From Candidatus Saccharimonadota bacterium (lineage in GTDB: Bacteria; Patescibacteriota; Microgenomatia; UBA1406; GWC2-37-13), in contig CP065004.1 of NCBI GenBank assembly GCA_016700135.1, positions 840,001 to 872,000 on the forward strand: DNA of 32,000 nt, in the 5' to 3' direction. The notes beneath the pieces were generated by a model that was not told the DNA's origin, searched no databases, and saw only the letters and a list, made by a program, of their open reading frames with translations. The position numbers and the translations under genes were made by a program. Below, piece after piece: positions 6,367 through 32,000 of the stretch; positions within the stretch are counted from its first letter, which is position 1; every line of letters begins with the position of its first letter.

Positions 6367-6462
6367 GAGGTGATAATAGGCAGAGATTGTGAAGATTACC
6401 GTTGGAAATAGATGAATATTCTGTAAATTAGTTCTTTTTTTCCGTGATAGAATAATAACGAT

Positions 6463-7059: not shown

Positions 7060-7823
7060 ATAGTATTCCTTCAATCCAAACCACTTCCGAAGTAGCACTT
7101 GCGAAGGCCTTTATACAAACAACGCTCAAGGACACAAAACGTGAAAATGTTATCATAGCTGTTTCTGGAGGCATTGATTCCGCGACGTCGTTATATCTTT
7201 TGAATGAGGCTCTTGATAAAAGAAATATATTTGTCGTTCATCTGTATTATTTTAAAAAGTCGATTGAGGCATTCCATGCGGTGGTAGATCCTATGAAACT
7301 GCCGAAGGAAAACATACTTCTCTACTCTATTAAAAACGTCGTTGACGCGATTGTGCAAAATGTTTCGGCAGAAAATGATCCCGTTCGAACCGGCAATATT
7401 ATGGCAAGGGTTCGCATGCTACACCTGTTTGATCTGGCAAAAAAACATACAGCTTTGGTTTGCGGTACTGAAAACCGTTCGGAATATCACCTGGGATATT
7501 TTACCCGTTTCGGTGATGCAGCTTCTGATTTTGAACTTATCAATCATTTGTATAAAACCCAGGTACGGCAGCTTGCTTCATATCTTCAAGTTCCTCAACC
7601 GATTCTTGATGCTGAGCCGTCAGCCGGGCTTTGGGAAGGTCAGACTGACGAAAAGGAACTGGGGTTTACCTATGAAGAAGCCGATCAGATATTGTATCTT
7701 CATTTTGAGGAAGGAAAGTCAGCGGTTGAGATCAGTGAGCAAGGATTTGAGAATACGGACGCTGTCTTGAGCGTTGTTGAGAAGAACAGTTTTAAGCACA
7801 AAGTGCCGTATGTGATGGGATAA
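7056..7823 (+). CDS. nadE: NH3-dependent NAD+ synthetase
   Basis: SGGIDS ATP-pyrophosphatase motif, a length of ~255 aa, and a 4-nt overlap with nadD. Confidence 0.9.
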   Translation: MNSIPSIQTTSEVALAKAFIQTTLKDTKRENVIIAVSGGIDSATSLYLLNEALDKRNIFVVHLYYFKKSIEAFHAVVDPMKLPKENILLYSIKNVVDAIVQNVSAENDPVRTGNIMARVRMLHLFDLAKKHTALVCGTENRSEYHLGYFTRFGDAASDFELINHLYKTQVRQLASYLQVPQPILDAEPSAGLWEGQTDEKELGFTYEEADQILYLHFEEGKSAVEISEQGFENTDAVLSVVEKNSFKHKVPYVMG

Positions 7824-18102: not shown

Positions 18103-18902
18103 GCAGGAGATTTTTCGTCAAGGGAGCACAACATATTACTTTTCAAGCATCTTTTTTCCTCCCGATGTCCGAGAAAAAAGTCTTTACGCTCTACGCGTAT
18201 GTCCGTACAGCCGATGATTATGTGGATGCAGTTCCTCAGGATGCCGCAGGTTTTCATCGATTCAAACAAATGACGCTGGATGCTTTGGAGGGCAGAAAAG
18301 TTCCGGATGTTATTATCAGTGAGTTTATTGATTTGGCACGGAAAGAACAGATTAAAAGTGACTGGATTCTTGCTTTTCTCTCTGCTATGGAGCAGGACTT
18401 GACCGTGAAAACATACGAGACATATCAGGATCTTGAAAAATATATGTACGGCTCGGCAGAAGTTGTCGGTCTTGCAATGGCACGTATTCTCAACCTGCCG
18501 GAGAAATCGTTACAAGCCGCACAACTTCAAGGTAAGGCTATGCAGCTTATCAATTTTATAAGAGACATCCGGGAAGATCTTGTATTCGGAAGGGTTTATA
18601 TCCCGCAGGAAGATTTGCAAAAGTTTCATATTACAGAACTGAATGAACACGTTGATCCGGAACAGTTTTCAGCTCTTATTCGATTTGAGACAGAACGGTA
18701 CCTAAGCCTGCAAAAACAAGCTGAGAGCGGATATGCATACATACCCCGTCGGTATAGAATTCCTGTACAGACGGCCTCTGCTATGTATAATTGGACTGCA
18801 AGACAGATTATTCAAAACCCTATGATGATTTTTGAGAAAAAAATTAAACCTCATCCCTTACGAGTGATGAGTACCGTTATGAACTATTTAATAAAAGGAT
18901 GA
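18092..18902 (+). pseudogene. crtB: Phytoene synthase interrupted by one frameshift at an A6 run
   Basis: ATG 18092 overlaps the crtI stop and reads MPSKQEIFRQGSTTYYFSSIFFPPDVREK. The +1 frame (ORF 18165-18902) continues VFTLYAYVRTADDYVD...YMYGSAEVVGLAM...NFIRDIREDL. One A fewer in 18174-18179 restores the frame. Confidence 0.85.
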
Positions 18903-19951
18903 CATTGCAGGATTTTTACAAACAACACCAACCGAAACTGATTGAACATATCTACGAAAATCTTGACCAAACCTATAAAAATTATCCACTTCCTGTAGGA
19001 GCAAAAGGAATTCAAATGGTGCGAAAGTCAGTAGCACAGGGAAAAATGATTAGAGGAATGCTCGTTTTGATGAGCGCTCAGATGCACGGCGTTCAAATTA
19101 CGGATGAGCTCTACGATCTTGCAGCGGCGGTTGAAATTCTTCATACCGGATTTCTGATTCACGATGACATCATGGACAATGATTACAAAAGAAGAAATCA
19201 GGATTCAGTATATTATCAGTACATTAAAGAAGGAAAACGGCGAAAAGCAAATGATCCGGAGCATTACGGTATGTCAATGGCGATGTGTCTCGGAGATATG
19301 ATCTTCTTTCTCGTATTTGAGATTATTTCTAAAAAAATTAAGGATCCTGAGCTTGTGCAATGTATCATCGGATATATCAGCCAGGAAGTTCAGCATATTG
19401 GGCCTGCACAGATGATGGACGCAGCCTATGGGTTGATTACCAAAGATCCCAGTGCGACGGAAATTGACGAAATTTATACTTATAAAACTGCCCATTATAC
19501 ATTCTCACTCCCACTTATTCTCGGTGCTGTTTTTTCTTCATACGTGCGGTTGCCGCTTCTCAAAGATCTCGGATGCCAGATGGGAATTATTTTTCAACTC
19601 AGAGATGATGAACTCGGCATTTTCGGAACTACTAAAGAGATCGGTAAGCTGGTCGGGTCAGACATCCGGGAAAATAAAAAAACATTAATCCGCCATCTTT
19701 TGTGTAAGCGTGCCAATAAAGAGTCTCGGAAAAAATTGACCACAATTTTCGGAAATTCGGATATTTCTCAGGCTGATATTACTTTGGTCAGGAACATGAT
19801 ACACGAATATGGTGTTCTGAGCGAAATCAATAAACAGATACTCAAGCGCAAAAAAAAGATAGAATCTTATCTGGCTGAACTTTCTGAGGACGGGATAGAT
19901 GTCTCTCTGCTTGGTGAACTTCTGATATTTATTATTTCCCGAAAGAAATGA
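18899..19951 (+). CDS. Polyprenyl (geranylgeranyl) diphosphate synthase
   Basis: LIHDDIMDND (first Asp-rich motif) and FQLRDDELG (second motif). ATGA overlap with crtB. Confidence 0.85.
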   Translation: MTLQDFYKQHQPKLIEHIYENLDQTYKNYPLPVGAKGIQMVRKSVAQGKMIRGMLVLMSAQMHGVQITDELYDLAAAVEILHTGFLIHDDIMDNDYKRRNQDSVYYQYIKEGKRRKANDPEHYGMSMAMCLGDMIFFLVFEIISKKIKDPELVQCIIGYISQEVQHIGPAQMMDAAYGLITKDPSATEIDEIYTYKTAHYTFSLPLILGAVFSSYVRLPLLKDLGCQMGIIFQLRDDELGIFGTTKEIGKLVGSDIRENKKTLIRHLLCKRANKESRKKLTTIFGNSDISQADITLVRNMIHEYGVLSEINKQILKRKKKIESYLAELSEDGIDVSLLGELLIFIISRKK

Positions 19952-20766
19952 TAAAAACGATTCTCTTCATCTCCCGGCCCCGTTTTTGGATATATCTTCT
20001 CGGTCCGTTTCTTGTCGGGTTCGTAGCAGCTGCCGGTATTTCGGATGCAGTTGTATCACCCGTTTTTTGGTATGGTTTTTTCTTTTTCCTGTTGCCCGCA
20101 AACGTTTTCTTGTACGGAGTGAATGACTTTTTTGACGGTGATACAGACATACATAATGAGAAAAAGGGTATAAAAGAATCTTTGATGAGAGCTTCTGATA
20201 GAGCTTTTTACATGAGGGTATCTTTAATATCCTTTTTGTTTGCCTTGCCGTTTTTTTTGTTCCTGGATACTCAATCCACATTGCTGCTCGCAGTATTTTT
20301 TTTGCTTGCATTTTTTTACAGTGCTCCTCCGCTTCGATTAAAGGCGAAACCGTTTCTGGATTTTATCAGCAATATTTTGTACATACTTCCCGGAGTCATT
20401 ATTTACCAGCAAATTACTAAAGAAACGGTACCTCTTATACTGCTTATTGCAGCAGGATGTTGGGCAGGAGCGATGCATTTGTATTCTGCCATACCGGACA
20501 TTAAGGCAGACCGAAAAGCGGGATTAATTACAACTGCAGTTTTGCTGGAGAAAAAAAATAGTCTGGTTTTATGTATGATTTTATGGGGAGTAACAGCATT
20601 TATTGTGTCAGGAATATCACCGGTGCTGTCTTTAGCCTGGATATATCCTCTCATTGTTGCAGCCGTTTACGCAGGATATATGTCCCTTAAAAAAACGTAC
20701 TGGTATTTCCCCTGGATTAATTTGTTGTTAGGTTTTTTATTATTTATCTATGTCGCACTGGTATAA
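19948..20766 (+). CDS. UbiA-family prenyltransferase, lycopene-elongase-like (LyeJ/CrtEb-like) by context
   Basis: NDFFDGDTDIHN (NDxxDxxxD), ~8 TM helices, 272 aa. ATGA overlap with the upstream synthase. It sits between carotenoid genes. Confidence 0.7.
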   Translation: MIKTILFISRPRFWIYLLGPFLVGFVAAAGISDAVVSPVFWYGFFFFLLPANVFLYGVNDFFDGDTDIHNEKKGIKESLMRASDRAFYMRVSLISFLFALPFFLFLDTQSTLLLAVFFLLAFFYSAPPLRLKAKPFLDFISNILYILPGVIIYQQITKETVPLILLIAAGCWAGAMHLYSAIPDIKADRKAGLITTAVLLEKKNSLVLCMILWGVTAFIVSGISPVLSLAWIYPLIVAAVYAGYMSLKKTYWYFPWINLLLGFLLFIYVALV

Positions 20767-21481
20767 CTACACAGTTGTTGTGGTGATGCTTTTCTCATTG
20801 TTAGCATCGTTCTTTGTCAGCCGAATCGGAATTGATTCAGAGCTTTGGATTGTCTCATTGATTTTCATGTCTCTTTTCGCACTCCCATCCTTCATCTCAA
20901 TAGTTCGTCTCAATAGAAAGAGAGCCTTTCTGACACTTACTTCCTTAAGCGTTGCGAGCCTGACAATCGAATCGTTTGCCATCAAAACAGGGTTTCCGTA
21001 CGGAGCTTTTTACTATCAGGATAGTTTGGGCCCAAAAATCCTGGGTTTGGCACCGCTTGCGGTACCGCTTGGGTGGATTCCGCTTGTTCTCGGATCATAT
21101 GCCCTTGTCAGACGACTCAGAATACCGTTTACTTACGTAAATACTGCAGTGCTTCTCGTTTTACTTGATATGGTTATCGATCCGGGATCGTTTGCGCTGG
21201 GTATTTGGATCTGGCGAACACCGGGAGCGTTTTACGGCGTACCCTTGCAGAATTTTGTAGGATGGTTTTTTTCCGGTTTGATAGGAGCGTGGATTGCTCA
21301 CTTCTTTATTGGAAAAATTATTCAAAAAGCGCACTACTCAATGATAATCTTAAGTCTCGTCGGACCCGTGAGCTTCTGGACAGGGATTGCGTTTTTCAAG
21401 GCACTGTGGATCCCGGTAATGCTGGGCTGTTGCCTATTGTGGTTAATGTTTTTCTCAGTTAGAGTTCGAAGTCAGCAGTGA
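20750..21481 (+). CDS. Carotenoid biosynthesis membrane protein (DUF422/CruF-like 1,2-hydratase family)
   Basis: ESFAIKTGFPYGAFYY and DMVIDPGSFALGIWIW...GAFYGVPLQNFVGWF resemble the Caroten_synth/CruF family. 17-nt overlap with the upstream gene. Confidence 0.7.
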   Translation: MSHWYNYTVVVVMLFSLLASFFVSRIGIDSELWIVSLIFMSLFALPSFISIVRLNRKRAFLTLTSLSVASLTIESFAIKTGFPYGAFYYQDSLGPKILGLAPLAVPLGWIPLVLGSYALVRRLRIPFTYVNTAVLLVLLDMVIDPGSFALGIWIWRTPGAFYGVPLQNFVGWFFSGLIGAWIAHFFIGKIIQKAHYSMIILSLVGPVSFWTGIAFFKALWIPVMLGCCLLWLMFFSVRVRSQQ

Positions 21482-22265
21482 TTTTTTTGTTTGCCCGCTC
21501 TTTGATGTGAGCTTTGACTTCGATGTATTTTTCAATACCTGAGTTTTTAAGCTTGCTTCTCAAAAGCTGATCAGTTTGGAAAATACCTGCTGAGCTGTTC
21601 ATGTAGATATCAACCACAATCGGTCGTTCTTCCCCTTCACTGACAGTTACTTTATCAATTGCCATAGCTGATATCGAGTGGATTTCCATCCGCCCGGCCT
21701 CAAAAGGAAGTCGCGATCGTCCTTCACTCATATCCAGCGCGTCAGCGACGCGAAGAATTCCGCCTTCAATAGTTGATGGCTTTCCCCCGCTTCGGTGATT
21801 GATAATGGCATGCAAAGTTTCTGCGATGACAATTGTTTTTTCCTCAATCGGCAGGAAATCTATCAGTTCTCTCAGAAGGGTATGTGTCATGAAAAGACTG
21901 AACTCCTCGTGTCCTTCACGGTTTGCTGACATTCCGATATCGTGAAGCAAACTTGCCAACAGCACCACAAGTTCTGCGTGATCCCGGGTAAGTTTAAAAT
22001 CTTTGACGATGGAGGGCTCGATACCGTTTTTGGCAAGAATTCGAAGCAGTCGAAGCGACAGATTCGAAACGATCTGGAAATGAACCGGCCCGTGGTCAGT
22101 CATTTTCAGACGATCAATTGCGTTTGTGTTTATAATATTCCAGAGTGTGCGAATCTCAACATTGGTATTGACCATATCGAGTGCTTTTTCTAAAAGCTTA
22201 TTGTTTTTTGTCGGGACATGTATAGAAATACTGTCCGGCGACGGTTTTTGTGTTACCGTTTTCAT
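21459..22265 (-). CDS. HD-domain phosphohydrolase
   Basis: HGPVHFQIV ... LLHDIGMS (H...HD) motifs; 268 aa. Confidence 0.8.
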   Translation of the reverse strand: MKTVTQKPSPDSISIHVPTKNNKLLEKALDMVNTNVEIRTLWNIINTNAIDRLKMTDHGPVHFQIVSNLSLRLLRILAKNGIEPSIVKDFKLTRDHAELVVLLASLLHDIGMSANREGHEEFSLFMTHTLLRELIDFLPIEEKTIVIAETLHAIINHRSGGKPSTIEGGILRVADALDMSEGRSRLPFEAGRMEIHSISAMAIDKVTVSEGEERPIVVDIYMNSSAGIFQTDQLLRSKLKNSGIEKYIEVKAHIKERANKKITADFEL

Positions 22266-22291
22266 AATAAATAATATGTTAATAATTCAAG

Positions 22292-22432
22292 TTACGGTTC
22301 AATTACTGCGGTCGGAGTTGCGGAGTTTGCGTCCGCTTGTTCTGTGGCCTTGTACTGGATGTACAAATAAAGAGTAAGCAGGAAGATAATAAGTACGGTG
22401 ATCGTAATAACTATACTAGTGAGTATCTTCAT
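22292..22432 (-). CDS. Possible 46-aa single-TM protein
   Basis: MKILTSIVITITVLIIFLLTLYLYIQYKATEQADANSATPTAVIEP*. It is below the ORF-track cutoff and rests only on ORF and hydrophobicity. Confidence 0.3.
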   Translation of the reverse strand: MKILTSIVITITVLIIFLLTLYLYIQYKATEQADANSATPTAVIEP

Positions 22433-22518
22433 GTAGTGATATTATATCACTCACGATTTTCTTAATCAATAAAACTATCTAATACTAGATCAATCCAGTA
22501 GTCAGATAGCTTCAGGGA

Positions 22519-22815
22519 TTAATAGTTTCTTCTTTTGAAAGAACCGCGATCATTACTTCGTTCTTCGCGCGGTCTTGCAATAGTGACGACTATTTTTCGT
22601 CCGTCAATTTCTTTTTCATTCATTTCTTCAATAGCTCTTTGTGCTGATGCATCATCTGCGAATGTGACAAATCCGAAACCCTTTGATCGGTTGGTCTGTC
22701 TGTCCATGATAATGATAGCTTCAGAGATCTCTCCGAACTGTGAAAATAATTCGTTCAGTGACGAATCATTCATTGACCAAGGTAAATTCCCTACGTATAT
22801 TTTATTTTGCTGCAT
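22519..22815 (-). CDS. RRM-domain RNA-binding protein
   Basis: RNP2 IYVGNLPW and RNP1 KGFGFVTF, with a basic RG-type tail. Confidence 0.9.
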   Translation of the reverse strand: MQQNKIYVGNLPWSMNDSSLNELFSQFGEISEAIIIMDRQTNRSKGFGFVTFADDASAQRAIEEMNEKEIDGRKIVVTIARPREERSNDRGSFKRRNY

Positions 22816-22842
22816 TTGTGTATCACCGTCCTTTCTAAGTGC

Positions 22843-23142
22843 TTAACGTCTATTTCTTCGTTGATAATGTGAAAAAAATGTATGACCTTTTCGGTCGACT
22901 GAATGGATTTCCGTAACTCTAATCCTGCTTCCGTTTACTAGTTTATTATTCAATGTTGCTATAGCGTCATTTGCAACCTTGTCTGATGTCATTGTAATAT
23001 ATGCCGTATCATTATTCTGTTTAAAACCGATTTTTCTATTCAGTTCAACAGAGACAACTTCACCTACGGTTGAAAAAAGTGTTTTGAGATTTTCTTCGGT
23101 TGTATCTGCTGAGATTCTTCCGACGTATACGATATTTGACAT
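22843..23142 (-). CDS. Divergent RRM-like RNA-binding protein
   Basis: VYVGRISADTTEENLKTLFSTVGEV resembles RNP2 and helix 1. The canonical RNP1 is absent (NDTAYITM). It lies in tandem with the RRM gene above. Confidence 0.6.
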   Translation of the reverse strand: MSNIVYVGRISADTTEENLKTLFSTVGEVVSVELNRKIGFKQNNDTAYITMTSDKVANDAIATLNNKLVNGSRIRVTEIHSVDRKGHTFFSHYQRRNRR

Positions 23143-23403
23143 GAATTAATGTTCTTCAGAGGAGAAATGGAAGTGCGAGAAATAATGTCTTTAGCTTACA
23201 AGTTCATCCAAGATAAGGATAGTATATCAGTTTGTTTGCCAAATAGCAAAAAAATAATCTTAAGAGCCGAATGTAAAGGCAAAATATGTAAAGTTGCCGT
23301 TAGATAATCTCTATGTCAAGCATCTTTCTATTTTCTTGTCAAATCCTTACTTATTCTGTACGAAAGGTTGACTATTGCTTCATTTTCTCACGATAAACTG
23401 TTA

Positions 23404-24121
23404 GGCTCTAGACTAGCACATTAACAATTTGTAATAGTTCATTGCAAAGGATCGATGGGGATTTGCTCCATCTCCATTCACCTCTTTCAAGTGTAATGGA
23501 AAGTTTTTCTTTACACCATTGAACTTAACGAGACGTCTTTACAAAAGGACCAGAATGACTCTATGCCATTGATATGGACCCCTTTGTATTTGAGAACTCA
23601 TTTTTCTTGTGATTGATTCTCAAATGTTTGTCATACCTGACATCAATACAAGTCCGTTGTATCCGCTCCACGAATCTGAATATACAGTACTGTTCAAGTT
23701 AATCTTTCCCTTCATAACAGCATGTAGCGTTCTTTTCTTTACAGTTTGGAATGATACGAGTAAATACACGTCCTTGACGCTCATATATCCTGGGGCCACT
23801 ACCTGCTTAAAATGACGTCCCACGACCTCTTTACTTGACTTGCCTCTCATCCTTCGAGGTCCAAGTATGATTCATCAATTTCTATCTCACCACCAACATA
23901 TCGTTGCATCTGGTGCACTTGGTGATGATATATGAGTTCGACGAATATTATTGTAATATTTGTTGACTGTATTGCGGTTGAGACCCAAAATACCAGAGGT
24001 CTGTGTAGCACTCAGATCGTGTACAAACACCATAGTATCTTTTTCTCTTGTATTTTGATATCGGCCTATTGTTACAAAACCATACCTCTAGTTTAGCACT
24101 ACTTTCTGCTAGTCTAGAGCC
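23404..24121 (-). mobile_element. Decayed copy of the IS1595-like element (transposase pseudogene)
   Basis: It is the reverse complement of 29608-30322 over its full length and keeps both 15-bp terminal inverted repeats (GGCTCTAGACTAGCA at 23404-23418; its complement at 24107-24121). About a dozen 1-2-nt indels break the transposase frame. ORFs 23609-23815 and 23620-23850 are fragments of it. Confidence 0.9.
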
Positions 24122-25078
24122 TTACTAATAATCCTAATGAGAAATTTCTCTCATGATTCTCTGTTCGCAAGCCAAACTGAAAATGATAATCGAGGCGTTA
24201 ATGTTAAACGGGGCTTACGCAATAAATGCCAGATAGAATTCGTCCAGGTGTTGCACCGATAGGCTATAGAAACGTCTTGAGAGCTAATAGATTTCAACCG
24301 TTGAACAAGACCCGAACGGGCACCAATAATCAAGAAAATATTTGAAAAAGTAGCCTATCAAGGATTCTCAGGACGAATGGTTAAAAAGTGGCTTGATGAT
24401 ATTGATTCACTACCAAGAGTGGATGCAAGATGCCTCTTAGCAAAGTCTATGTAGTACTGCAAACTCCTTTTATTATGGTGAATTTAAGTACGGTGAGAAT
24501 TGGTATAAAGGGACGTAAGAACCACTGATAACCAAGCGCTCTTGAAAGAGTGCAAATTCAACTTCAGGTTGCACCGAGACAGTGGAACAAACAGCTATTC
24601 CCATTCAAGAAAATCTGTATTCATGCGGCTCATGCGGTGAAGTGTCACCGCAGAAATAAAGTATCGAAGAACAAAAGCGAATAAAGTGAATAGCCATATT
24701 TATTACCATTGTAATAGGATTAAAAAGTATGATTGTCCTGAGCCATACATTACTGAGCAAGAATTAATAAACCAATTAATCGGACATCTACCAAAAATAC
24801 GACTTAACACTTCATATTTACTGCAAGAATTCGATGTCGAGGTTAAAAGGCTACAGCATTTAAAAGCAGCAGTAATTGACGGATATACACCAAGAGCTGA
24901 ATTAACACCACATAACAACGGACAGATTGAATTAAAATATGACGAATCAAAAACAGAGATGCTTAAAGAATATTTGCTTCATGTCCTTCAATACGGCACA
25001 CCTGAAGAACGAGTCAAAATATTAAAAGGCGTTAACTCCAGATTTATCCTCGCAGACCGCCAACTTTCACTCCAGTAG
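24122..25078 (+). pseudogene. Large serine recombinase, C-terminal two-thirds (frameshifted); continuation of 30323-30692
   Basis: It reads out of the IS end as TNNPNEKFL.. LMILCSQAKL.. NVKRGLRNK.. RPGVAPIGYRN.. IIKKIFEKVAYQGFSGRMVKKWLDD.. in shifting frames. The intact tail is NSHIYYHCNRIKKYDCPEPYITEQELINQL... (ORF 24686-25078), a zinc-ribbon/coiled-coil region. Confidence 0.75.
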
Positions 25079-25325
25079 TTTTCTTCAATTGCTAACCCTT
25101 ACCAGAATGACAAGATTCGAACGGAAAAAAGTAGTTTTTGTGCTGTTCTGAGCGTTTTTGCTAAAAAGCTTAGAACCGAGTGCATTTCCCTTATAGGTAT
25201 TTTCGGCGATTTTCACCTCTCTAGGATATGTTTGGAGTATTCAATAATTGCAGGCTCTTTTTAGCAAGTAACATCAAGCTAATCGAGCATAGGAGTTAGG
25301 TCTTGAAGCAACTCAAGGCTCTATG

Positions 25326-25411
25326 CGGAGGAGGCGGGATTCGAACCCGCGAGTCCATTGCTGGACGCAGACTTTCCAGGTCTGTGGAATAAACCGCTAT
25401 CCGACTCCTCC
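25326..25411 (-). tRNA. tRNA-Ser (anticodon GGA)
   Basis: GGAGGAGTCGGATAGCGGTTTATTCCACAGACCTGGAAAGTCTGCGTCCAGCAATGGACTCGCGGGTTCGAATCCCGCCTCCTCCG. It has a 7-bp acceptor stem, the CAGAC/GTCTG anticodon stem with loop CTGGAAA, a long variable arm (GTCCA-GCAA-TGGAC) and the GCGGG/CCCGC T stem. No CCA is encoded. Confidence 0.9.
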
Positions 25412-25510
25412 TGAAGTAGTTGTATTGTATCAAATAACACTTCCTAATACAGCGTATTGCTTTAATTACGTAAGAAAAACCCGTGTTCATTTTTGATCTA
25501 TTTCGTCATA

Positions 25511-25539
25511 TTGACTCTGAAACGATCGTTTCATATACT
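25511..25539 (+). promoter_or_regulatory. lexA promoter (TTGACT-N17-TATACT) with a perfect palindrome GAAACGATCGTTTC in the spacer (candidate SOS box)
   Basis: TTGACT at 25511-25516 and TATACT at 25534-25539. The 14-bp palindrome at 25519-25532 resembles the Gram-positive GAAC-N4-GTTC LexA operator. Confidence 0.5.
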
Positions 25540-25575
25540 GATATATATAAATGTTAAAAATTCATATATGGACTT

Positions 25576-26151
25576 ATGGAACAAGATTTATTGACGCCGC
25601 TAAAAAATTTTTACCGTAAAAACAGGCGTTTGCCGTCATACTCGGAAATGCTCAAAATATTCAATGTTGCTTCCAAAAGAACTATCTATGAATATGTCCA
25701 GCAGCTTATTGACGAAGGGTTTATCAAACGGGTAAATAAAAAACTTTCACCGACAAAACGTTTTTTCGCTTTGCCGGTCCTCGGTATGATTCAGGCGGGA
25801 TTTCCGATTCTTGCACAACAAAGCAGAAGCTACCTCACGCTTGATGAATATTTTATTGAGAAACCTGATAATTCTTTTTTACTTAAAGTACACGGTGATT
25901 CGATGATCAATGCCGGGATATTTGAAGGAGATCTCGTCGTAATCGAGCAGAAAGGCGATTTCCGGGCAGGAGATATCGTACTTGCCGAAATTGACAATGA
26001 GTGGACCTTAAAGATTCTGAAAAAAGAAAAAGGGAAAACATTTCTCGAAGCTGCCAATCCGATGTATCCGCCTTTTTATCCGAAACGGGAATTGAAGATC
26101 CATGGAATAGTACGGGCCGTTATGAGAAAACTTGGCGGGATGGCTAACTAA
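25576..26151 (+). CDS. lexA: LexA repressor (S24 peptidase)
   Basis: N-terminal winged-helix domain. GDSMINAGI carries the catalytic Ser and EWTLKILKK the Lys region. Confidence 0.9.
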   Translation: MEQDLLTPLKNFYRKNRRLPSYSEMLKIFNVASKRTIYEYVQQLIDEGFIKRVNKKLSPTKRFFALPVLGMIQAGFPILAQQSRSYLTLDEYFIEKPDNSFLLKVHGDSMINAGIFEGDLVVIEQKGDFRAGDIVLAEIDNEWTLKILKKEKGKTFLEAANPMYPPFYPKRELKIHGIVRAVMRKLGGMAN

Positions 26152-26164
26152 AGAACAGAACTGA

Positions 26165-26193
26165 TTGACAACCTTCTTATAGTTCTATATACT
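26165..26193 (+). promoter_or_regulatory. Near-consensus promoter TTGACA-N17-TATACT abutting the start codon (leaderless-type)
   Basis: TTGACA at 26165-26170 and TATACT at 26188-26193. ATGs at 26197 and 26203 lie 4 and 10 nt after the -10 box. Confidence 0.5.
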
Positions 26194-26196
26194 GAA

Positions 26197-27930
26197 ATGC
26201 ATATGGAACTATTGGGTTTCCTCAGTATTATTCTGTCTCTTGTTGCTCTTTTTAAGGTCAACAGCCTCAGTAAAAAAATCGATTCTCTTACAAATCCTGT
26301 TACATCTCCATCTCAAGCTGAAACACAAGTATCCGCTACACAGAAAGCGCCTCAGGTTTCAACACAAAGTATTCAAAAACCTACAAGAACTCTTCCTGTT
26401 ACTGAAAAAGGACCGGTTGAAAAGTTTTTTGCCTGGTATGCCCATGAATGGCCTCTCAAGACAGGAGCATTTTTCATTCTTCTGGGATTTTTGTGGCTTG
26501 TGACTTATGCCTTCCTCAACAACTGGATCGGGCCTGCAGGGCGGATCACATTCGGGATAATTGCCGGAGCACTGGTACTGCTTTTCGGTGAAAGACGAAT
26601 GCAGAAATTCAAAACCCAGGGAATCACTCTCATCGGACTTGGAGCCGGTATCGTGATTATCACCACATATGCCGCTCAGGAAGTGTACCAAATGTTCCCG
26701 CCGCAGCTGGCACTGACTTTTATGGTACTTACAATGATATATACATCCTTTGTCAGCTTGAGGTATAAGGTACTGTCGCTGGCAGTTTTCAGTCTTTGTA
26801 TCGGTGGAATTGCACCGCTTCTCATCGGTTCCGAAGAAAAAAGCATCGTAGGTCTTTACGGATATCTGCTTGCCGTGGTCATAAGTAATATATGGATTGC
26901 AAGATACGGTAAATGGAAAATCCTGTCATTCCTTTCTGTTGTCCTTATATCACTCTACAGCGTAACCTTTTTTATATCATCTGCAGAAACTCTGAAAACG
27001 ACATTATCTCCGAAAGAATTTCTTGAGATCAGCTTTTTTGCCGTCACATTCTGCAGTCTCTTTTATTTTTCAACCCTTGCATCGATCATTACATCACGCA
27101 AAGCAACTACAATCGACCTCCAGACTGCAGCACTTGTCGGATTTTTTAGTCTTGCATGGATAAATGCACTGACCATGCCGGTTTATAAAAGCGTAGTGGT
27201 CCTGATTGCCACTTTTGCTTATGCAGGCGGCGCGTATATGGTATATCTCCGGACGAAGATCCCTTCGGCTGTGCAGGTGTATACGGTTGTCTCAATGATT
27301 TTACTTGCCGTTGCAACAGCATTTGAATTTGACGGCCCTGCATTGACCATTGCATTTTCTATTGAAGCCCTCATCCTCCCGATCATCTCAAGTCGCCTCC
27401 TTGGTACAACCATGACCAAGTACATGCTGCTGTATCATATCCTGCCGATCGCTCTGGGAATCAACGCCCTTGCCGGTCTAAGCGATATGCACTTTGCCCG
27501 GGAATTTACCATCCTGCTTTTTGTCACGCTTTCTACATTCCTGTCCGGGTGCTATTTTTATTATGCTGACGGAAAAGAAGACCACGATCTTCACAGCGCT
27601 TCAATACTGCTTGTAATTGTAGGTGCAGTTTACGGACTGCTTTTGATCTGGAGGACTACAAGTGAAATCATTCCTATCACGTATTTTGCCCGAGCCGTAG
27701 CGCTGGTCCTTTATACCGTTATCGGACTTTCGAGTTATGTTGTTGCAGGTTTGCAGGATCGTCCCGTACTGAAAAAATTCGGTTTAGGCCTCCTAATTGC
27801 CGTAATTGGAAGACTCTTAGTTGTTGAGATATGGAGCATGGAACTGACCGGACGAATTATTACATTTTTCCTCATCGGACTCCTATTTATCGGATCCGTA
27901 TTGATGGGCAAAACGAAAAAAACAGCATGA
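26197..27930 (+). CDS. Large polytopic membrane protein (DUF2339-like)
   Basis: 577 aa. An N-terminal TM helix is followed by a polar linker and more than 15 TM helices (FFAWYAHEWPLKTGAFFILLGFLWLVTYAF...). The start may be ATG 26203 if the mRNA is leaderless. Confidence 0.75.
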   Translation: MHMELLGFLSIILSLVALFKVNSLSKKIDSLTNPVTSPSQAETQVSATQKAPQVSTQSIQKPTRTLPVTEKGPVEKFFAWYAHEWPLKTGAFFILLGFLWLVTYAFLNNWIGPAGRITFGIIAGALVLLFGERRMQKFKTQGITLIGLGAGIVIITTYAAQEVYQMFPPQLALTFMVLTMIYTSFVSLRYKVLSLAVFSLCIGGIAPLLIGSEEKSIVGLYGYLLAVVISNIWIARYGKWKILSFLSVVLISLYSVTFFISSAETLKTTLSPKEFLEISFFAVTFCSLFYFSTLASIITSRKATTIDLQTAALVGFFSLAWINALTMPVYKSVVVLIATFAYAGGAYMVYLRTKIPSAVQVYTVVSMILLAVATAFEFDGPALTIAFSIEALILPIISSRLLGTTMTKYMLLYHILPIALGINALAGLSDMHFAREFTILLFVTLSTFLSGCYFYYADGKEDHDLHSASILLVIVGAVYGLLLIWRTTSEIIPITYFARAVALVLYTVIGLSSYVVAGLQDRPVLKKFGLGLLIAVIGRLLVVEIWSMELTGRIITFFLIGLLFIGSVLMGKTKKTA

Positions 27931-29153
27931 AAGCATTTTTAAACCCTATAACAACTTCACTTTTCACAATACTGCTTCTCGCTGCCGGAGCAATACATGC
28001 ACAATCCGGATATGAATACACGAGCCCTACACCAAGTGTTGATAGTGTCATTTCGAATTTTCAGTTTATTCAAAATGTTGCACCGAGGGATGAACCTCTG
28101 CCGGTACCTATAGAGATGCCAGTCTCGACAAATCGTCTTTCGGATTATGTGGTTGTAGATACCGGAACCAATACCTTGCAGCCCCGTACCATTGTGACAA
28201 GATCGGAAAATATTCCCGTTACCGTTACAGTTTACAGTTCCACCTCAAGTGCGTCACTGCTCCATGACGGAGAGACATCCACATTTGAGACATATCAGAT
28301 TGATCAAAACCCGGCGGTAACCGGAGCCTCCGTATTTGTCTCTTTGCATTACACCTACGAAAAACCCATCCAAACGAGTAACCTGGTCACGGTTCTTGAC
28401 CGGAATGTGGTCATGCCTCAACGCATTAGTATTCAGTCAAGAAACGGACAAAACGACAACTGGGAATTTATCACTAATAATGCATCGATGAGCAGTACTG
28501 TTTACTTTCCGCAAACTACGGCACGTGAGTTTCTCGTAACTCTTACATACAATCAGCCGCTCCGTATCGCTGAAATGAATTTTGTGCAAAACCCGACGGC
28601 AGAATCGTATTATCTGAGATTTGTAGCAAGACCAAAGACAGCTTATGCAGTGTACAGTATGCCTGAAGGGAATGTTCCTTATATTCCTTATCTGGACAAT
28701 CTGAATCTGACATCCACCACTCTGGAGACGGTCGCATTCAACTCCACCCGTTTACCGAATCCGAAATATGTCCCTCCGGACACTGATAAAGACGGCATTA
28801 TTGACAGCCGGGACAACTGCATCAGCGTTGCAAATGCCGACCAGGCTGACTTGAATAAAAATAATCAGGGGGATGCCTGCGAAGACTCAGATCTGGACGG
28901 CGTCATCAACGCTAATGATAACTGTCCCGATATGCCGAATCCCAATCAGCAGGACGAAGACAGTGACGGAAAAGGGGACCACTGTGACGGAGTAGAGAGC
29001 AGATGGGTAGAACAGCTGTCATTTCTTCCGTGGATCGGTATCGGAGTCGGTTTCATCGTTGTTCTGGCACTTTTCAAGTTTTCACTTTCGAAACAAACTC
29101 CAGAAGAAGCCTCTGAAGTAATGCCACAAAATAAGGAAGACACTAATAAATAA
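27927..29153 (+). CDS. Secreted protein with thrombospondin type-3 Ca-binding repeats and a C-terminal TM anchor
   Basis: ATG 27927 overlaps the upstream stop (ATGA). The signal peptide is MKAFLNPITTSLFTILLLAAGAIHAQS. Repeats are DTDKDGIIDSRDNC, DSDLDGVINANDNCP and DEDSDGKGDHCD. The C-terminal helix is FLPWIGIGVGFIVVLALF. Confidence 0.75.
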   Translation: MKAFLNPITTSLFTILLLAAGAIHAQSGYEYTSPTPSVDSVISNFQFIQNVAPRDEPLPVPIEMPVSTNRLSDYVVVDTGTNTLQPRTIVTRSENIPVTVTVYSSTSSASLLHDGETSTFETYQIDQNPAVTGASVFVSLHYTYEKPIQTSNLVTVLDRNVVMPQRISIQSRNGQNDNWEFITNNASMSSTVYFPQTTAREFLVTLTYNQPLRIAEMNFVQNPTAESYYLRFVARPKTAYAVYSMPEGNVPYIPYLDNLNLTSTTLETVAFNSTRLPNPKYVPPDTDKDGIIDSRDNCISVANADQADLNKNNQGDACEDSDLDGVINANDNCPDMPNPNQQDEDSDGKGDHCDGVESRWVEQLSFLPWIGIGVGFIVVLALFKFSLSKQTPEEASEVMPQNKEDTNK

Positions 29154-29595
29154 CGACTTTCGTTCCTATCGGTGCCCATTCATAAAGCCAGTCGGCTTCA
29201 GCAAGCGATACATTCACGCAACCGTTGCTCATGGGTGTACCGAAGTTGTTGTGCCAATAGGCTCCGTGGATCGCATACCCTTTATAAAAATACATAACAT
29301 CCGTCACTCCGGGATGATCATAGTATCCGTTTACTGAAGAATAGCCCCGCATCCTCTGCACAGGAAGTTTCCAGTAGGTTTTGTATGTACTCTTAACGGT
29401 GGGGGTTTGTGAAAGTCCCGTGGAAACAGGAGTACTCCTCACTATTTTGCCGTCCTCCCAGGCATAGAGCATCTGGTTGGAAGTGTCAACCGTAATCAGC
29501 TTTTCTGTAGTAATAATCTCTTCAGCATGTATGCCAGCAAAGGAAACAAAAAGAAACATGGTGAAAGTAACCAGAACAATTCTGATGTATCTCAT
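29143..29595 (-). CDS. L,D-transpeptidase (YkuD domain)
   Basis: Signal peptide, then ...YAIHGAYWHNNFGTPMSNGCVNV (the HG...S.GC catalytic motif). Its start codon lies 12 nt from the IS end at 29608. Confidence 0.85.
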   Translation of the reverse strand: MRYIRIVLVTFTMFLFVSFAGIHAEEIITTEKLITVDTSNQMLYAWEDGKIVRSTPVSTGLSQTPTVKSTYKTYWKLPVQRMRGYSSVNGYYDHPGVTDVMYFYKGYAIHGAYWHNNFGTPMSNGCVNVSLAEADWLYEWAPIGTKVVIY

Positions 29596-29607
29596 ATGAA
29601 TAACAGT

Positions 29608-30322
29608 GGCTCTAGACTAGCAGAGTAGTGCTAAACTAGAGGTATGGTTTGTAACAATAGGCCGATATCAAAATACAAGAGAAAAAAGATACTATGGTGT
29701 TTTGCACACGATCTGAGTGCTACACAGACCTCTGGTATTTTGGGTCTCAACCGCAATACAGTCAACAAATATTACAATAATATTCGTCAACTCATATATC
29801 ATCACCAAGTGCACCAGATGCAACGATATGTTGGTGGTGAGATAGAAATTGATGAATCATACTTTGGACCTCGAAGGATGAGAGGCAAGTCAAGTAAAAG
29901 AGGTCGTGGGACGTCATTTAAGCAGGTAGTATTTGGGATATATGAGCGTCAAGGACGTGTATTTACTCGTATCATTCCAAACTGTAAAAGAAGAACGCTA
30001 CATGCTGTTATGAAGGGAAAGATTGACTTGAACAGTACTGTATATTCAGATTCGTGGAGCGGATACAACGGACTTGTTGATGTCGGGTATGACAAACATT
30101 TGAGAATCAATCACAAGAAAAATGAGTTCTCAAATACAAAAGGGGTCCATATCAATGGCATAGAGTCATTCTGGTCCTTTTGTAAAAGACGTCTCGTTAA
30201 GTTCAATGGTGTAAAGAAAAACTTTCCATTACACTTGAAAGAGTGTGAATGGAGATGGAGCAAATCCCCATCGATCCTTTACAATGAACTATTACAAATT
30301 GTTAATGTGCTAGTCTAGAGCC
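29608..30322 (+). mobile_element. Intact IS1595-family (ISXO2-like) insertion sequence, 715 bp
   Basis: Perfect 15-bp terminal inverted repeats: GGCTCTAGACTAGCA at 29608-29622 and its complement at 30308-30322. It has a single transposase ORF and is inserted inside a serine recombinase gene. Confidence 0.9.
29644..30318 (+). CDS. IS1595-family DDE transposase (ISXO2-like)
   Basis: N-terminal HTH, then IEIDESYFGPRR..RGRGTSFKQVVFGIYERQGRV..TVYSDSWSGYNGL..HLRINHKKNEF..HINGIESFWSFCKRRL..LHLKECEWRW, the typical ISXO2-like DDE domain. Confidence 0.9.
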   Translation: MVCNNRPISKYKRKKILWCFAHDLSATQTSGILGLNRNTVNKYYNNIRQLIYHHQVHQMQRYVGGEIEIDESYFGPRRMRGKSSKRGRGTSFKQVVFGIYERQGRVFTRIIPNCKRRTLHAVMKGKIDLNSTVYSDSWSGYNGLVDVGYDKHLRINHKKNEFSNTKGVHINGIESFWSFCKRRLVKFNGVKKNFPLHLKECEWRWSKSPSILYNELLQIVNVLV

Positions 30323-30692
30323 TTAGTAAATGATTGAGAGTAGGTTTTAATATGCAATAGTTTCCCTTGATCCATTAAGTCTACAATTCGTCCTAAATCT
30401 CCGGCATTGCGGGATAGTCTATCAGGTGCCCAAGTGAGGATGGCGTTAAATTTTCCTTCTGCCAGTTCTTTCAGAAGCCTGTTAAACTCTGGACGTTGTC
30501 CTGATTCTTTAGCGGAATGGCTTTCAGTAATAACCTCAACGACATTTAACTTCTCCCGCTTTGCCATTAATCTCATTTCCTGAAGCTGCCCGTCAATACC
30601 ATTGCCTGCCGCTCATCAGATTCACTCGATTTTCTCGCATACAAACAGTATCCGATTGCTTCTGTTTTGCCCTTGGTTGTGATCCTTTCCAT
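30323..30692 (-). pseudogene. Large serine recombinase, N-terminal catalytic domain (frameshifted, truncated by the IS)
   Basis: From ATG 30692 it reads MERITTKGKTEAIGYCLYARKSSESDERQAM, shifts frame, then continues IDGQLQEMRLMAKREKLNVVEVITESHSAKESGQRPEFNRLLKELAEGKFNAILTWAPDRLSRNAGDLGRIVDLMDQGKLLHIKTYSQSFT| and runs into the IS end at 30322. Confidence 0.8.
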
Positions 30693-30786
30693 ACAACACA
30701 ATGAATGACGCAACCGTACTATGAAGTCAAGGCGCAAGATACTATACGATTAAAAAGAGAAATTTACTAACATTTATATGAGGAAG

Positions 30787-32000
30787 TTAGGCCGAAGGTG
30801 TCTGTGATTGAGCTTTCCAAGATTTTACTACCTGAGGTTGAGCATCTGGAGACTCTTTATAACTCAATTCTTCTATTAACCCATGTGCTGCATGAGCTAC
30901 TTTTCCTGCCACTGCAAGTTCTTGTGGATTGGTTACCCCTGTAAAAGTAAGTTCTCGTGCGTTATTTACTGCCTCAGTTGCTAGCGTAAGCGCTGCTTTC
31001 TCTGGATCACCATCAGCAGCTTCTAATGCTGCATGTACATCTTGTGTAACAGATGTTCTTTGATCTCTGGGCAATAAGTCAGGGTTTCGCTGAGTAGTTT
31101 TCGGAACTAAATCATGGGTACGAAAATCAAGATGCTGGAATACTTCCACATCTCCAAGCTTTAAGGAACTTGAGTATGAATGAAAACTATCAAACATACG
31201 AAGTGCAACATGTGGGGGAATTTTAGAAAGATCCACATTTTTAAGATCAATTTTATTTCTTCCAACCTCAACTCCTAATGTCTCCTGAAGAGCACGTCCT
31301 GATCTTACAGCTTCCATATCTGTTATTTCTTTTCCTGCTAAATCAACCTCTACATCTTCTGGCGTTTTTGATTCAATTTTGCCCATCATTTCGCCTGTTC
31401 CATCATAAACTACAACTTCTTTTGCAAGCGTATAAGAAATAACTCGATCCATACCAAGACGTGTTGCTGCAAATGCTGCACCTTGAGATAACCACATAGG
31501 AATCCCAGTCATCCGAACTGTATTAACTCCACGTGCTTTAAGTTCTTTCAACTGTGCTGCAACTTCTCGCATATATTCTTGTGCTTTAGTAGGATCAGCC
31601 ATTTGTTGCATCGCTTCAGGATTATCAGCAAAGGTTAATCGAAGATCTACAACGTCTGTTGGAGCATTGGGATCAAGTTTGGAGGGTGGAACTTCAGCAA
31701 GTAATGGTTTGGTCGGATGATCTGGAATATCAGCAGCAAATTCATCAGACCATAATACAACTCTACCTTCACGTCCTGGATTATTGAATGCAAATTCTTT
31801 GACCTTAGAACCAGGTTTACCTGCCTCCGCTGCAACACCCATATAAATATCCATGAGTGTTCCACCTGTTAAATCAAGACTTTTACTATCAAAAACTTTT
31901 TTTGTTCTGGCAACTTTTACATATTCTGCAAGTTGGTATATATCTGCTTTTCCACCTTCGTAGAGGTCTTTACTAACATCAAATACTCGTGGTTCTGATT
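30787..32000 (-). CDS. Large hypothetical protein (5' end outside the window), possibly with a CARF-like Rossmann sensor motif
   Basis: The frame stays open from 30787 to the window end; the listed Met at 31854 is internal. The upstream part reads ...VFDVSKDLYEGGKADIYQLAEYVKVARTKKVFDSKSLDLTGGTLMDIYMGVAAEAG... The remaining ~340 aa has no recognised family. Confidence 0.6.
   Translation of the reverse strand, partial: SEPRVFDVSKDLYEGGKADIYQLAEYVKVARTKKVFDSKSLDLTGGTLMDIYMGVAAEAGKPGSKVKEFAFNNPGREGRVVLWSDEFAADIPDHPTKPLLAEVPPSKLDPNAPTDVVDLRLTFADNPEAMQQMADPTKAQEYMREVAAQLKELKARGVNTVRMTGIPMWLSQGAAFAATRLGMDRVISYTLAKEVVVYDGTGEMMGKIESKTPEDVEVDLAGKEITDMEAVRSGRALQETLGVEVGRNKIDLKNVDLSKIPPHVALRMFDSFHSYSSSLKLGDVEVFQHLDFRTHDLVPKTTQRNPDLLPRDQRTSVTQDVHAALEAADGDPEKAALTLATEAVNNARELTFTGVTNPQELAVAGKVAHAAHGLIEELSYKESPDAQPQVVKSWKAQSQTPSA

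What the first reader, a model, noticed from the sequence alone, without database searches (positions are those of the whole stretch)
23404..30692. IS-mediated inversion of a 5.5-kb chromosomal block, shown by swapped 7-bp target duplications and a bisected serine recombinase gene
Two copies of one ~715-bp IS, each with perfect 15-bp TIRs (GGCTCTAGACTAGCA), lie inverted at 23404-24121 and 29608-30322. The 7-bp flanks are ACTGTTA (left) and TTACTAA (right) for copy 1, and TAACAGT (left) and TTAGTAA (right) for copy 2. Neither copy has its own direct repeat. Instead, copy 1 left is the reverse complement of copy 2 left, and copy 1 right is the reverse complement of copy 2 right. That is the expected signature if each IS once had a 7-bp TSD (ACTGTTA and TTAGTAA) and recombination between the copies then flipped 24122-29607. 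A second line of evidence agrees. The N-terminal part of a large serine recombinase reads on the minus strand into 30323 (...KTYSQSFT). Its continuation (NNPNEKFL...VKRGLR...PIGYRN...zinc ribbon) reads on the plus strand out of 24122. Undoing the inversion rejoins the gene across a single IS. The flipped block carries lexA, tRNA-Ser, the DUF2339-like/TSP3 operon and ldt. IS1595 elements are usually reported with 8-bp duplications, so 7 bp is itself worth noting.
Basis: seen in the sequence. Interest (0 to 1): 0.7.

Follow-up and report, generated by a model that had tools for sequence, protein, structure and literature searches.

The report
Insertion-sequence-bounded 5.5-kb chromosomal inversion
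Two inverted copies of a small IS1016-type insertion sequence bracket a 5.5-kb block that is flipped relative to two related genomes; this is a real but ordinary kind of bacterial rearrangement.

Summary
Two copies of a 715-bp IS1016-group (IS1595 family) element lie inverted at 23404-24121 and 29608-30322, each with perfect 15-bp terminal repeats. Their 7-bp flanks are swapped reverse complements, and flipping 24122-29607 in silico restores both direct repeats. It also rejoins a large serine recombinase in frame, giving ...SQSFT|NNPNEKF..., the peptide found in intact homologues. Two related genomes (92% and 78% nt identity) lack the IS and carry the block in the restored orientation. One of them has a single-copy empty site, TAACAGT. 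The inversion is therefore derived in this lineage and IS-bounded.

Three corrections apply:
- **Route not settled.** The swapped-duplication pattern is also what a single intramolecular replicative transposition produces, so recombination between two independent insertions is not proven.
- **7 bp is normal.** Sixteen related copies have perfect 7-bp duplications, and the literature gives 7-9 bp for IS1016 elements.
- **Suspect tract.** Positions ~23445-24640 (copy 1 plus about 520 nt of recombinase) carry about 25 one-base indels with no excess substitutions. That spectrum is unlike natural divergence here and looks like low-quality sequence. The apparent decay of copy 1 cannot be trusted, and reads are needed.

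A close published precedent exists (ISApl4). Interest is low.

The parts
23404..24121 (-). IS copy 1 (718 bp, IS1016 group of the IS1595 family). The transposase frame is broken by 14 indels relative to copy 2.
   Evidence: Alignment to copy 2 gives 10 mismatches and 14 gap openings. At all 27 differing columns copy 1 carries the derived state, judged against 9 outgroup IS copies.
29608..30322 (+). IS copy 2 (715 bp) with an intact 224-aa transposase ORF at 29644-30318.
   Evidence: Pfam DDE_Tnp_IS1595, E=1.7e-27, with no Zn-finger domain hit. ORF listed.
23404..23418 (.). Terminal inverted repeat, 15 bp perfect. The other three are at 24107-24121, 29608-29622 and 30308-30322.
   Evidence: 4 exact matches against 0.39 expected.
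23397..23403 (.). Target duplication X, outer copy (ACTGTTA). Its partner TAACAGT is at 29601-29607.
   Evidence: The relative L001 carries TAACAGT once at the unoccupied site.
24122..24128 (.). Target duplication Y, inner copy (TTACTAA). Its partner TTAGTAA is at 30323-30329.
   Evidence: It fits the clade's target preference TTANWWA.
24122..29607 (.). The inverted 5,486-bp block.
   Evidence: Its orientation is opposite to that in L001 and L002 relative to the RRM/HD flank.
24122..25078 (+). Large serine recombinase, C-terminal fragment (residues ~118-437 of homologues).
   Evidence: tblastn and frameshift-aware alignment to P0121, P0125 and P0133. There are 10 frameshifts and 1 stop, all between ~24150 and ~24640.
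30323..30692 (-). Large serine recombinase, N-terminal fragment (residues 1-117, catalytic YARKSS motif). It carries one frameshift near 30591.
25325..25411 (-). tRNA-Ser (GGA). Homology to relative L001 begins exactly at its 3' end.
   Evidence: ARAGORN; blastn.
25576..29153 (+). lexA-like S24 peptidase (25576-26151), DUF2339 membrane protein (26197-27930) and TSP3-repeat protein (27831-29153).
   Evidence: Pfam. The proteins are 93-99% identical to L001 and full length.
29143..29595 (-). L,D-transpeptidase (YkuD). Its start codon lies 12 nt from the end of IS copy 2.
   Evidence: Pfam; sequence.
23445..24640 (.). Indel-dense tract, about 25 mostly 1-nt indels in 1.2 kb with no excess substitutions. 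It is probably low-quality sequence, and it spans junction 24121/24122.

Best explanation
**What it is.** This is a genuine IS-bounded inversion in a Patescibacteria (CPR) chromosome.

**Inferred ancestral order.** HD - RRM1 - RRM2 - [ACTGTTA] - ldt - TSP3 - DUF2339 - lexA - tRNA-Ser - serine recombinase - further genes. The recombinase belongs to foreign DNA that abuts the 3' end of tRNA-Ser.

**Proposed steps.**
- An IS1016-group element inserted into the recombinase gene at TTAGTAA.
- A second copy, in the opposite orientation, came to lie at ACTGTTA, 12 nt upstream of ldt.
- Homologous (RecA-type) recombination between the two 715-bp inverted copies then flipped everything between them.

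Each IS end stays attached to its own flank. Each copy therefore ends up with one half of each duplication, and the two recombinase halves now sit 6.2 kb apart on opposite strands.

**Shown.** The flank pattern, the restored repeats, recombinase colinearity, the ancestral orientation in two relatives, and the empty site.

**Inferred.** Two independent insertions came first, and host recombination rather than the transposase did the flipping.
For: - **Flanks.** Swapped 7-bp flanks, and direct repeats restored by the in-silico flip.
- **Recombinase.** The Resolvase domain is continuous across the rejoined junction. Intact homologues P0125 and P0133 read SQSFTNNPNEKF exactly there.
- **Relatives.** L001 (92% nt) and L002 (78% nt) have lexA+, DUF2339+, TSP3+, ldt-, then RRM2+, RRM1+, HD+. 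This is the block in the restored orientation, with no IS.
- **Empty site.** The L001 sequence is colinear with the reconstructed empty site and carries TAACAGT once.
- **IS activity.** This IS clade makes 7-bp duplications: 15 perfect cases among 51 copies with both ends and flanks readable, plus L088. A 97.9%-identical sister strain has a further copy at window-equivalent position 19205, so independent insertions are plausible.
- **Precedent.** An inversion between two closely spaced ISApl4 (IS1016 subgroup) copies that lack their own direct repeats has been published (PMC12561309).
Against: - The flank pattern cannot separate this route from one-step intramolecular replicative transposition.
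- No relative was found with an IS at only one of the two sites.
- No relative carries the intact recombinase next to tRNA-Ser, so the right breakpoint rests on protein colinearity alone.
- If copy 1's differences are real, every one is derived in copy 1. A crossover would then have to fall in the last 41 nt or the first 16 nt of the IS, which is awkward for RecA-type recombination. If they are sequencing errors, this objection disappears, but so does any evidence that the copies have separate histories.
- No reads were available to verify the four junctions.
Confidence: 0.5

Rival explanations
1. One-step intramolecular replicative transposition ('in trans'). A single resident IS, with a normal 7-bp duplication, attacked a second site about 5.5 kb away on the same chromosome. 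Replication through the strand-transfer intermediate duplicated the IS in inverted orientation. The same step inverted the intervening DNA and split the new target duplication between the two copies.
For: - It produces the observed pattern exactly: X[IS]rc(T) ... rc(X)[IS]T. He et al. 2015 describe this for IS26 and Tn4401 (PMC4471558).
- It needs two events rather than three, and it explains why the copies are close together and inverted.
- If the indels in copy 1 are sequencing errors, the two copies may in truth be identical, as this model predicts.
- 31 of 51 related copies in metagenome contigs lack a duplication. IS26-like replicative elements show the same thing.
Against: - No evidence was found that IS1595/IS1016 elements transpose replicatively.
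- Their eukaryotic relatives (Merlin) belong to the TIR DNA transposons, whose transposition is described as excision by double-strand breaks followed by reinsertion (PMC8101967).
- 35 of 39 ISApl4 copies carry ordinary direct repeats.
- Taken at face value, the copies differ at 27 alignment columns, all derived in copy 1. That asymmetry would be very improbable for twins made in one event.
- Missing duplications in metagenome contigs can also come from chimeric assembly at repeats.
Confidence: 0.3
2. Assembly artefact. The real genome has the un-inverted order with two (near-)identical inverted IS copies, and the assembler oriented the unique 5.5-kb segment between them the wrong way.
For: - Orientation between inverted repeats longer than the read or insert length is ambiguous. 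A wrong choice gives exactly this swapped-flank pattern.
- One junction (24121/24122) lies inside a 1.2-kb tract whose indel spectrum looks technical, so this part of the assembly had a different data history.
- Close relatives are metagenome-assembled genomes.
Against: - As given, the copies differ every 84 nt or less. Only the terminal 41 nt and 16 nt are shared, so ordinary short reads would link each flank to its own copy.
- If those differences are instead long-read or gap-fill errors, then a single molecule spanning left flank - IS - recombinase fragment was presumably sequenced. That supports the inverted order directly.
- Either way, a wrong join is not favoured.
Confidence: 0.1
3. Transposase-mediated conservative exchange at the IS ends, analogous to the targeted conservative reaction of IS26. 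A related possibility is replication template-switching between the inverted terminal repeats. Either would swap flanks without a crossover inside the IS.
For: If copy 1's differences are real, both copies are 'pure'. Copy 1 is derived along its whole length and copy 2 nowhere. The exchange point must then lie within 41 nt or 16 nt of an IS end.
Against: - The premise probably fails, because the differences look like sequence errors.
- No such reaction is known for the IS1595 family.
Confidence: 0.04

Closest known systems
ISApl4 (IS1016 subgroup, IS1595 family) and the cpxRA inversion in Actinobacillus pleuropneumoniae AP_123 (PMC12561309)
   Same: - The IS is of the same size class (712 bp against 715 bp), with a single DDE_Tnp_IS1595 transposase of about 220 aa and no zinc finger.
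- It shares short perfect TIRs, an A/T-rich target and the same catalytic motifs (DESYFG ... HINGIE.FWS ... KECE.R).
- Two closely spaced copies bound an inverted segment, and those copies lack their own direct repeats.
   Different: - ISApl4 makes 8-bp duplications; this clade makes 7-bp ones.
- The host is a Patescibacteria genome rather than a Pasteurellaceae pathogen.
- Here the inversion also separates the halves of a gene already split by one of the copies.
IS26 / Tn4401 intramolecular replicative transposition in trans (He et al. 2015, PMC4471558)
   Same: The final structure is identical: an inverted segment bracketed by two inverted IS copies, with each duplication split between the copies in inverted orientation.
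   Different: - It is a different IS family (IS6/Tn3, where cointegrate formation has been demonstrated).
- Replicative transposition has not been shown for IS1595/IS1016 elements.
- Here the structure could equally come from host recombination.
Recombination-driven inversions between inverted IS copies, well known in bacterial genomes (own knowledge)
   Same: Two inverted homologous repeats of about 0.7 kb, with an exchange inside the repeat that leaves each flank attached to its own IS end.
   Different: Nothing essential. This is a small (5.5 kb) example in an uncultured CPR lineage.

Membership tests
IS1595 family, IS1016 subgroup | Single transposase with the DDE_Tnp_IS1595 catalytic domain | tested here: met
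   Pfam PF12762, E=1.7e-27, residues 64-205 of the 224-aa ORF of copy 2. The motifs DESYFG / HINGIESFWS / KECEWRW match those quoted for IS1016 transposases.
IS1595 family, IS1016 subgroup | No N-terminal Zn_Tnp_IS1595 zinc finger; other subgroups have one (PMC8101967) | tested here: met
   Pfam at E<=0.01 gave only DDE_Tnp_IS1595 and a weak HTH_23 hit. Literature criterion.
IS1595 family, IS1016 subgroup | Length about 700-745 bp with terminal inverted repeats starting GG | tested here: met
   Lengths 715 and 718 bp. Perfect 15-bp TIR GGCTCTAGACTAGCA. The GGCTCTAGAC ends are conserved in related loci. The size range is from my own recollection of ISfinder.
IS1595 family, IS1016 subgroup | Target duplication of 7-9 bp (8 bp in the rest of the family) | tested here: met
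   The flip restores 7-bp repeats. Of 51 related copies with both ends and flanks readable, 15 have perfect 7-bp duplications, and L088 adds another. The 7-9 bp range is quoted in PMC12561309.
Large serine recombinase (phage-type integrase) | Resolvase catalytic domain, then Recombinase domain, then zinc beta-ribbon | tested here: met
   The stitched 447-aa product has PF00239 (E=2.4e-19), PF07508 (E=1.2e-11) and PF13408 (E=2.7e-5, just under its curated cut-off). It also hits PHROG 95, integrase, E=6.6e-49. It is 75-79% identical to intact ~435-aa Patescibacteria proteins.
Large serine recombinase (phage-type integrase) | Intact, expressible gene | tested here: not met
   The gene is split by the IS and the inversion. 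It also carries at least 11 frameshifts and 1 stop as sequenced, though most lie in the suspect tract and may be errors.
Inversion by intramolecular replicative transposition | The two IS copies were identical when formed, and the IS family transposes through a replicative (cointegrate) pathway | tested here: inconclusive
   As sequenced, the copies differ by 10 mismatches and 14 gap openings, but the spectrum suggests errors. The pathway of the family cannot be tested with these tools.
Inversion by homologous recombination between independent insertions | Existence, in the lineage, of the intermediate with two un-inverted copies, each with its own direct repeat | not testable with these tools
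   No same-species assembly covering the locus could be retrieved. Exact-protein look-ups for window genes found only L001 and two short contigs.

The most novel reading that the evidence does not exclude
The structure is the direct product of a single intramolecular replicative transposition. IS1016-group elements would then be able to transpose by a copy-in (cointegrate-type) pathway, which has not been shown for the IS1595 family. The high share of relatives without duplications (31 of 51) would reflect frequent self-inflicted inversions and deletions in small CPR genomes.
Probability: 0.3. Interest if true: 0.35.

Novelty: new member of a known kind. Interest (0 to 1): 0.2.

Why it matters
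This is a clean, well-documented example of an insertion sequence reshaping gene order in an uncultured Patescibacteria genome.

- **Local effects.** The inversion flips lexA, a tRNA and a cell-envelope operon. It leaves an IS end 12 nt from the ldt start codon. It also permanently separates the two halves of an integrase-type recombinase, which would immobilise the adjoining foreign DNA.
- **Limits.** It teaches nothing new about mechanism unless the one-step replicative route can be shown.
- **Practical value.** It flags a probable low-quality stretch in the source assembly, and it shows that 7-bp duplications are the norm for this IS clade.

Tried and rejected
- **Exact-protein look-ups.** I queried the transposase, DUF2339, lexA, ldt, RRM2 and the 355-aa protein to find the source or same-species assemblies. 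None was on record. Only RRM1 hit, returning L001 again and two short contigs.
- **GC skew.** I tested GC and GC3 skew as an internal sign of recent inversion. The two large block genes have the opposite sign to the left flank, but lexA and ldt do not, so the signal is too noisy to use.
- **Copy differences as evidence.** All 27 differing columns are derived in copy 1. I first read this as an old decayed copy plus a young intact one, which would argue against the one-step model. I withdrew the argument once the indel spectrum looked technical:
  - Copy 1 against copy 2 gives 14 gap openings and 10 mismatches.
  - A natural IS relative gives 0 gap openings and 33 mismatches, and an intergenic comparison with L001 gives 1 gap opening and 16 mismatches.
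  - The frameshift-corrected recombinase is 88-91% identical to homologues inside the tract, no lower than outside it.
- **Uniform pseudogene decay.** I rejected this for the recombinase. Eleven of 12 disruptions fall in 520 of 1310 nt, which has a probability of about 3e-4 under uniformity (my calculation).
- **Junction searches.** I considered searching public data for orientation-specific junctions. I dropped the idea because each flank stays joined to the same IS end in both orientations, so only reads longer than the IS can discriminate.
- **Synteny of recombinase homologues.** I looked for an intact recombinase next to tRNA-Ser. The homologues sit in unrelated contexts.
- **The 355-aa ORFs.** The window and L001 each have a 355-aa ORF on the far side of tRNA-Ser (the window's lies beyond the recombinase), but the two are unrelated.
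- **The 2.78-kb deletion.** I checked the deletion near copy 1 for an IS scar and found none.
Full report
**1. What is in the sequence**

Two copies of one short element lie in inverted orientation at 23404-24121 (718 bp) and 29608-30322 (715 bp). Each ends in the perfect 15-bp inverted repeat GGCTCTAGACTAGCA. The window holds exactly four matches to that 15-mer even at three mismatches, against 0.39 expected by chance.

Copy 2 carries an intact 224-aa ORF (29644-30318, plus strand). The ORF has a DDE_Tnp_IS1595 domain (E=1.7e-27) and no zinc-finger hit. Size, GG ends, the missing zinc finger and the catalytic motifs all place it in the IS1016 subgroup of the IS1595 family (criteria from PMC8101967 and PMC12561309).

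The 7-bp flanks are ACTGTTA|copy 1|TTACTAA and TAACAGT|copy 2|TTAGTAA. Neither copy has its own direct repeat. Each left flank is the reverse complement of the other left flank, and the same holds for the right flanks. Reverse-complementing 24122-29607 in silico yields ACTGTTA[IS]ACTGTTA and TTAGTAA[IS]TTAGTAA, and neither repeat extends to 8 bp.

**2. The recombinase**

The minus strand from 30692 down to 30323 encodes the N-terminus of a large serine recombinase (YARKSSESDERQ ... KTYSQSFT). The plus strand from 24122 to 25078 encodes the remainder.

- After the flip, and after removing one IS and one duplication copy, a single reading frame crosses the junction and aligns to Resolvase profile positions 14-113.
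- The stitched product has Resolvase, Recombinase and zinc-ribbon domains and hits the PHROG integrase family 95 at E=6.6e-49.
- Intact homologues of about 435 aa, 75-79% identical, are common in Patescibacteria. Two of them read KTYSQSFTNNPNEKFL at exactly the junction.

The bisection is therefore real and precise.

**3. Comparative evidence**

A scan of representative genomes with the DUF2339 protein returned two close relatives, L001 (92% nt) and L002 (78% nt), and one distant Patescibacteria genome.

- Both close relatives have the order lexA+, DUF2339+, TSP3+, ldt-, then about 2.8 kb, then RRM2+, RRM1+, HD+. Relative to the RRM/HD flank, ldt is proximal. In the window, lexA, tRNA-Ser and the recombinase fragment are proximal.
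- Neither relative has the IS.
- L001 is colinear, base for base, with the empty site reconstructed from the window's two ACTGTTA-bearing flanks, and it carries TAACAGT once.
- L002 is the more distant of the two and agrees with L001, so the inversion is derived in the window's lineage.

The right breakpoint has no syntenic relative. Homology to L001 stops exactly at the 3' end of tRNA-Ser (25325), where L001 has a rhomboid gene and tRNA-Leu instead. The recombinase and what lies beyond 30323 therefore look like foreign DNA abutting tRNA-Ser.

**4. The 7-bp duplication is normal for this clade**

Eighty related IS loci from metagenomes share the GGCTCTAGAC ends.

- Of 51 copies with both ends and flanks readable, 15 have perfect 7-bp duplications, four more have one mismatch, and one has an ambiguous 8-bp repeat in a T run.
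- A further relative, L088, has TTTATAA.
- The target logo is T-T-A-N-W-W-A. TTAGTAA fits it and ACTGTTA does not.
- The literature gives 7-9 bp for IS1016 elements.

**5. Mechanism**

It follows equally from a single intramolecular replicative transposition in trans, where the original IS keeps one old flank and the new target duplication is split in inverted orientation (He et al. 2015). The final structures are identical.

I tried to separate the two using the differences between the copies. With nine outgroup IS sequences, all 27 differing columns are derived in copy 1 and none in copy 2. Taken at face value, this would argue strongly against twin copies born in one event. It would also force any crossover into the terminal 41 nt or 16 nt of the IS.

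**6. Why that argument cannot be trusted**

The differences are 14 gap openings against 10 mismatches. Natural divergence in the same lineage looks very different:

| Comparison | Mismatches | Gap openings |
|---|---|---|
| Copy 1 vs copy 2 | 10 | 14 |
| Copy 2 vs its closest relative (L087) | 33 | 0 |
| Window vs L001, block (25325-29608) | 334 | 0 |
| Window vs L001, left flank (21459-23284) | 187 | 1 |
| Window vs L001, intergenic | 16 | 1 |

The same pattern continues into the adjoining recombinase.

- Frameshift-aware alignment to three intact homologues finds 10 frameshifts (mostly -1 at runs of 2-4 nt) and one stop, all between ~24150 and ~24640.
- There are none in 24641-25078 and one in the N-terminal fragment.
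- After frame correction, the affected stretch is 88-91% identical to the homologues, at least as high as the unaffected parts.

Positions ~23445-24640 thus form a contiguous 1.2-kb tract with about 25 indels and no excess substitutions. The tract ends abruptly in the middle of a dead gene. Neutral decay should be uniform across that gene and rich in substitutions. The most economical reading is a stretch of lower-quality sequence, such as an unpolished long-read or gap-filled region. I cannot prove this without reads, and I record it as unexplained.

Consequences:
- The 'decay' of copy 1 and most recombinase frameshifts may be artefacts.
- The two IS copies may really be identical.
- The one-step model stays open.

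**7. Could the inversion itself be an assembly error?**

Orientation between identical inverted repeats is ambiguous for short reads, and a wrong choice mimics this signature. Two considerations lean against it.

- As sequenced, the copies differ every 84 nt or less, so reads would link flanks to the correct copy.
- If those differences are long-read errors, then a single molecule spanning flank, IS and recombinase fragment was sequenced, which supports the inverted order.

I give the artefact about 10%.

**8. Verdict**

The inversion is real and IS-bounded with probability about 0.85-0.9. The route is:

| Route | Probability |
|---|---|
| Homologous recombination between two insertions | ~0.5 |
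| One-step replicative transposition | ~0.3 |
| Assembly artefact | ~0.1 |
| Other | remainder |

A sister strain (97.9% nt) carries another copy of the same IS at window-equivalent position 19205, so the element is or recently was active in this species.

A direct precedent exists. [quoted passage not shown] The finding is therefore a new instance of a known kind of event, well supported but of low general interest.

Noticed in passing
window ~23445-24640: A contiguous 1.2-kb tract with about 25 mostly 1-nt indels. Fourteen are in IS copy 1, and 10 frameshifts plus 1 stop are in the recombinase. There are no excess substitutions, and the tract ends abruptly inside the recombinase gene. The spectrum is unlike natural divergence in this lineage, so it is probably low-quality sequence in the source assembly.
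   Followed up: yes
window 23284 (compare L001 13227-16007 and L002 ~4270-7160): The window lacks 2.78 kb that both relatives carry between ldt and RRM2: two small ORFs and a 581-aa DsbD_TM/AhpC/Thioredoxin_10 fusion gene. It is a clean deletion 120 nt from IS copy 1, with no IS scar, and the genes are not elsewhere in the window.
   Followed up: partly
L085 3934-3960 (window-equivalent ~19205): A contig from run SRR31558899 is 97.9% identical to window 19205-23142. It ends in the IRR end of the same IS, at a site that is unoccupied in the window and lies inside the polyprenyl synthase gene (18899-19951). This indicates recent IS activity or multiple copies in a sister strain.
   Followed up: partly
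window 25079-25325 and 30323-32000; L001 6816-8916: Homology to L001 stops exactly at the 3' end of tRNA-Ser. The window has the serine recombinase and an unannotatable 355-aa ORF there (no Pfam or PHROG hit, GC3 skew -0.40), whereas L001 has a rhomboid gene and tRNA-Leu. This suggests foreign DNA abutting tRNA-Ser, with its far end beyond the window.
   Followed up: partly
loci L089-L093; proteins P0121-P0240: This ~435-aa large serine recombinase family is very abundant and unusually conserved across Patescibacteria (the 120 best hits listed are 59-79% identical). It sits in unrelated chromosomal contexts, including contigs longer than 1 Mb.
   Followed up: no
loci L004-L083: 31 of 51 related IS copies in metagenome contigs with both ends and flanks readable have no recognisable target duplication. 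This could reflect frequent IS-mediated rearrangement, replicative transposition, or chimeric assembly at repeats.
   Followed up: no
window 29596-29607: The end of IS copy 2 lies only 12 nt upstream of the ldt (YkuD) start codon. The insertion therefore displaced whatever promoter or ribosome-binding region ldt had, and ldt expression may now depend on sequences inside the IS.
   Followed up: no
window 19948-21481: The UbiA prenyltransferase and Caroten_synth-like membrane protein genes are present in the window, L002 and L085 but absent from the closer relative L001. This is a gene-content difference next to the polyprenyl synthase gene.
   Followed up: no
window 22519-23142: Two tandem genes for small RRM-domain RNA-binding proteins (98 and 99 aa). 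One is 100% identical in L001. They are conserved in all close relatives.
   Followed up: no
L001 and L002 record titles: The two closest relatives are deposited as 'uncultured Gammaproteobacteria bacterium'. However, the third relative found with the DUF2339 protein (L003) and the named recombinase homologues are all labelled Patescibacteria, so the label is probably a misclassification.
   Followed up: no
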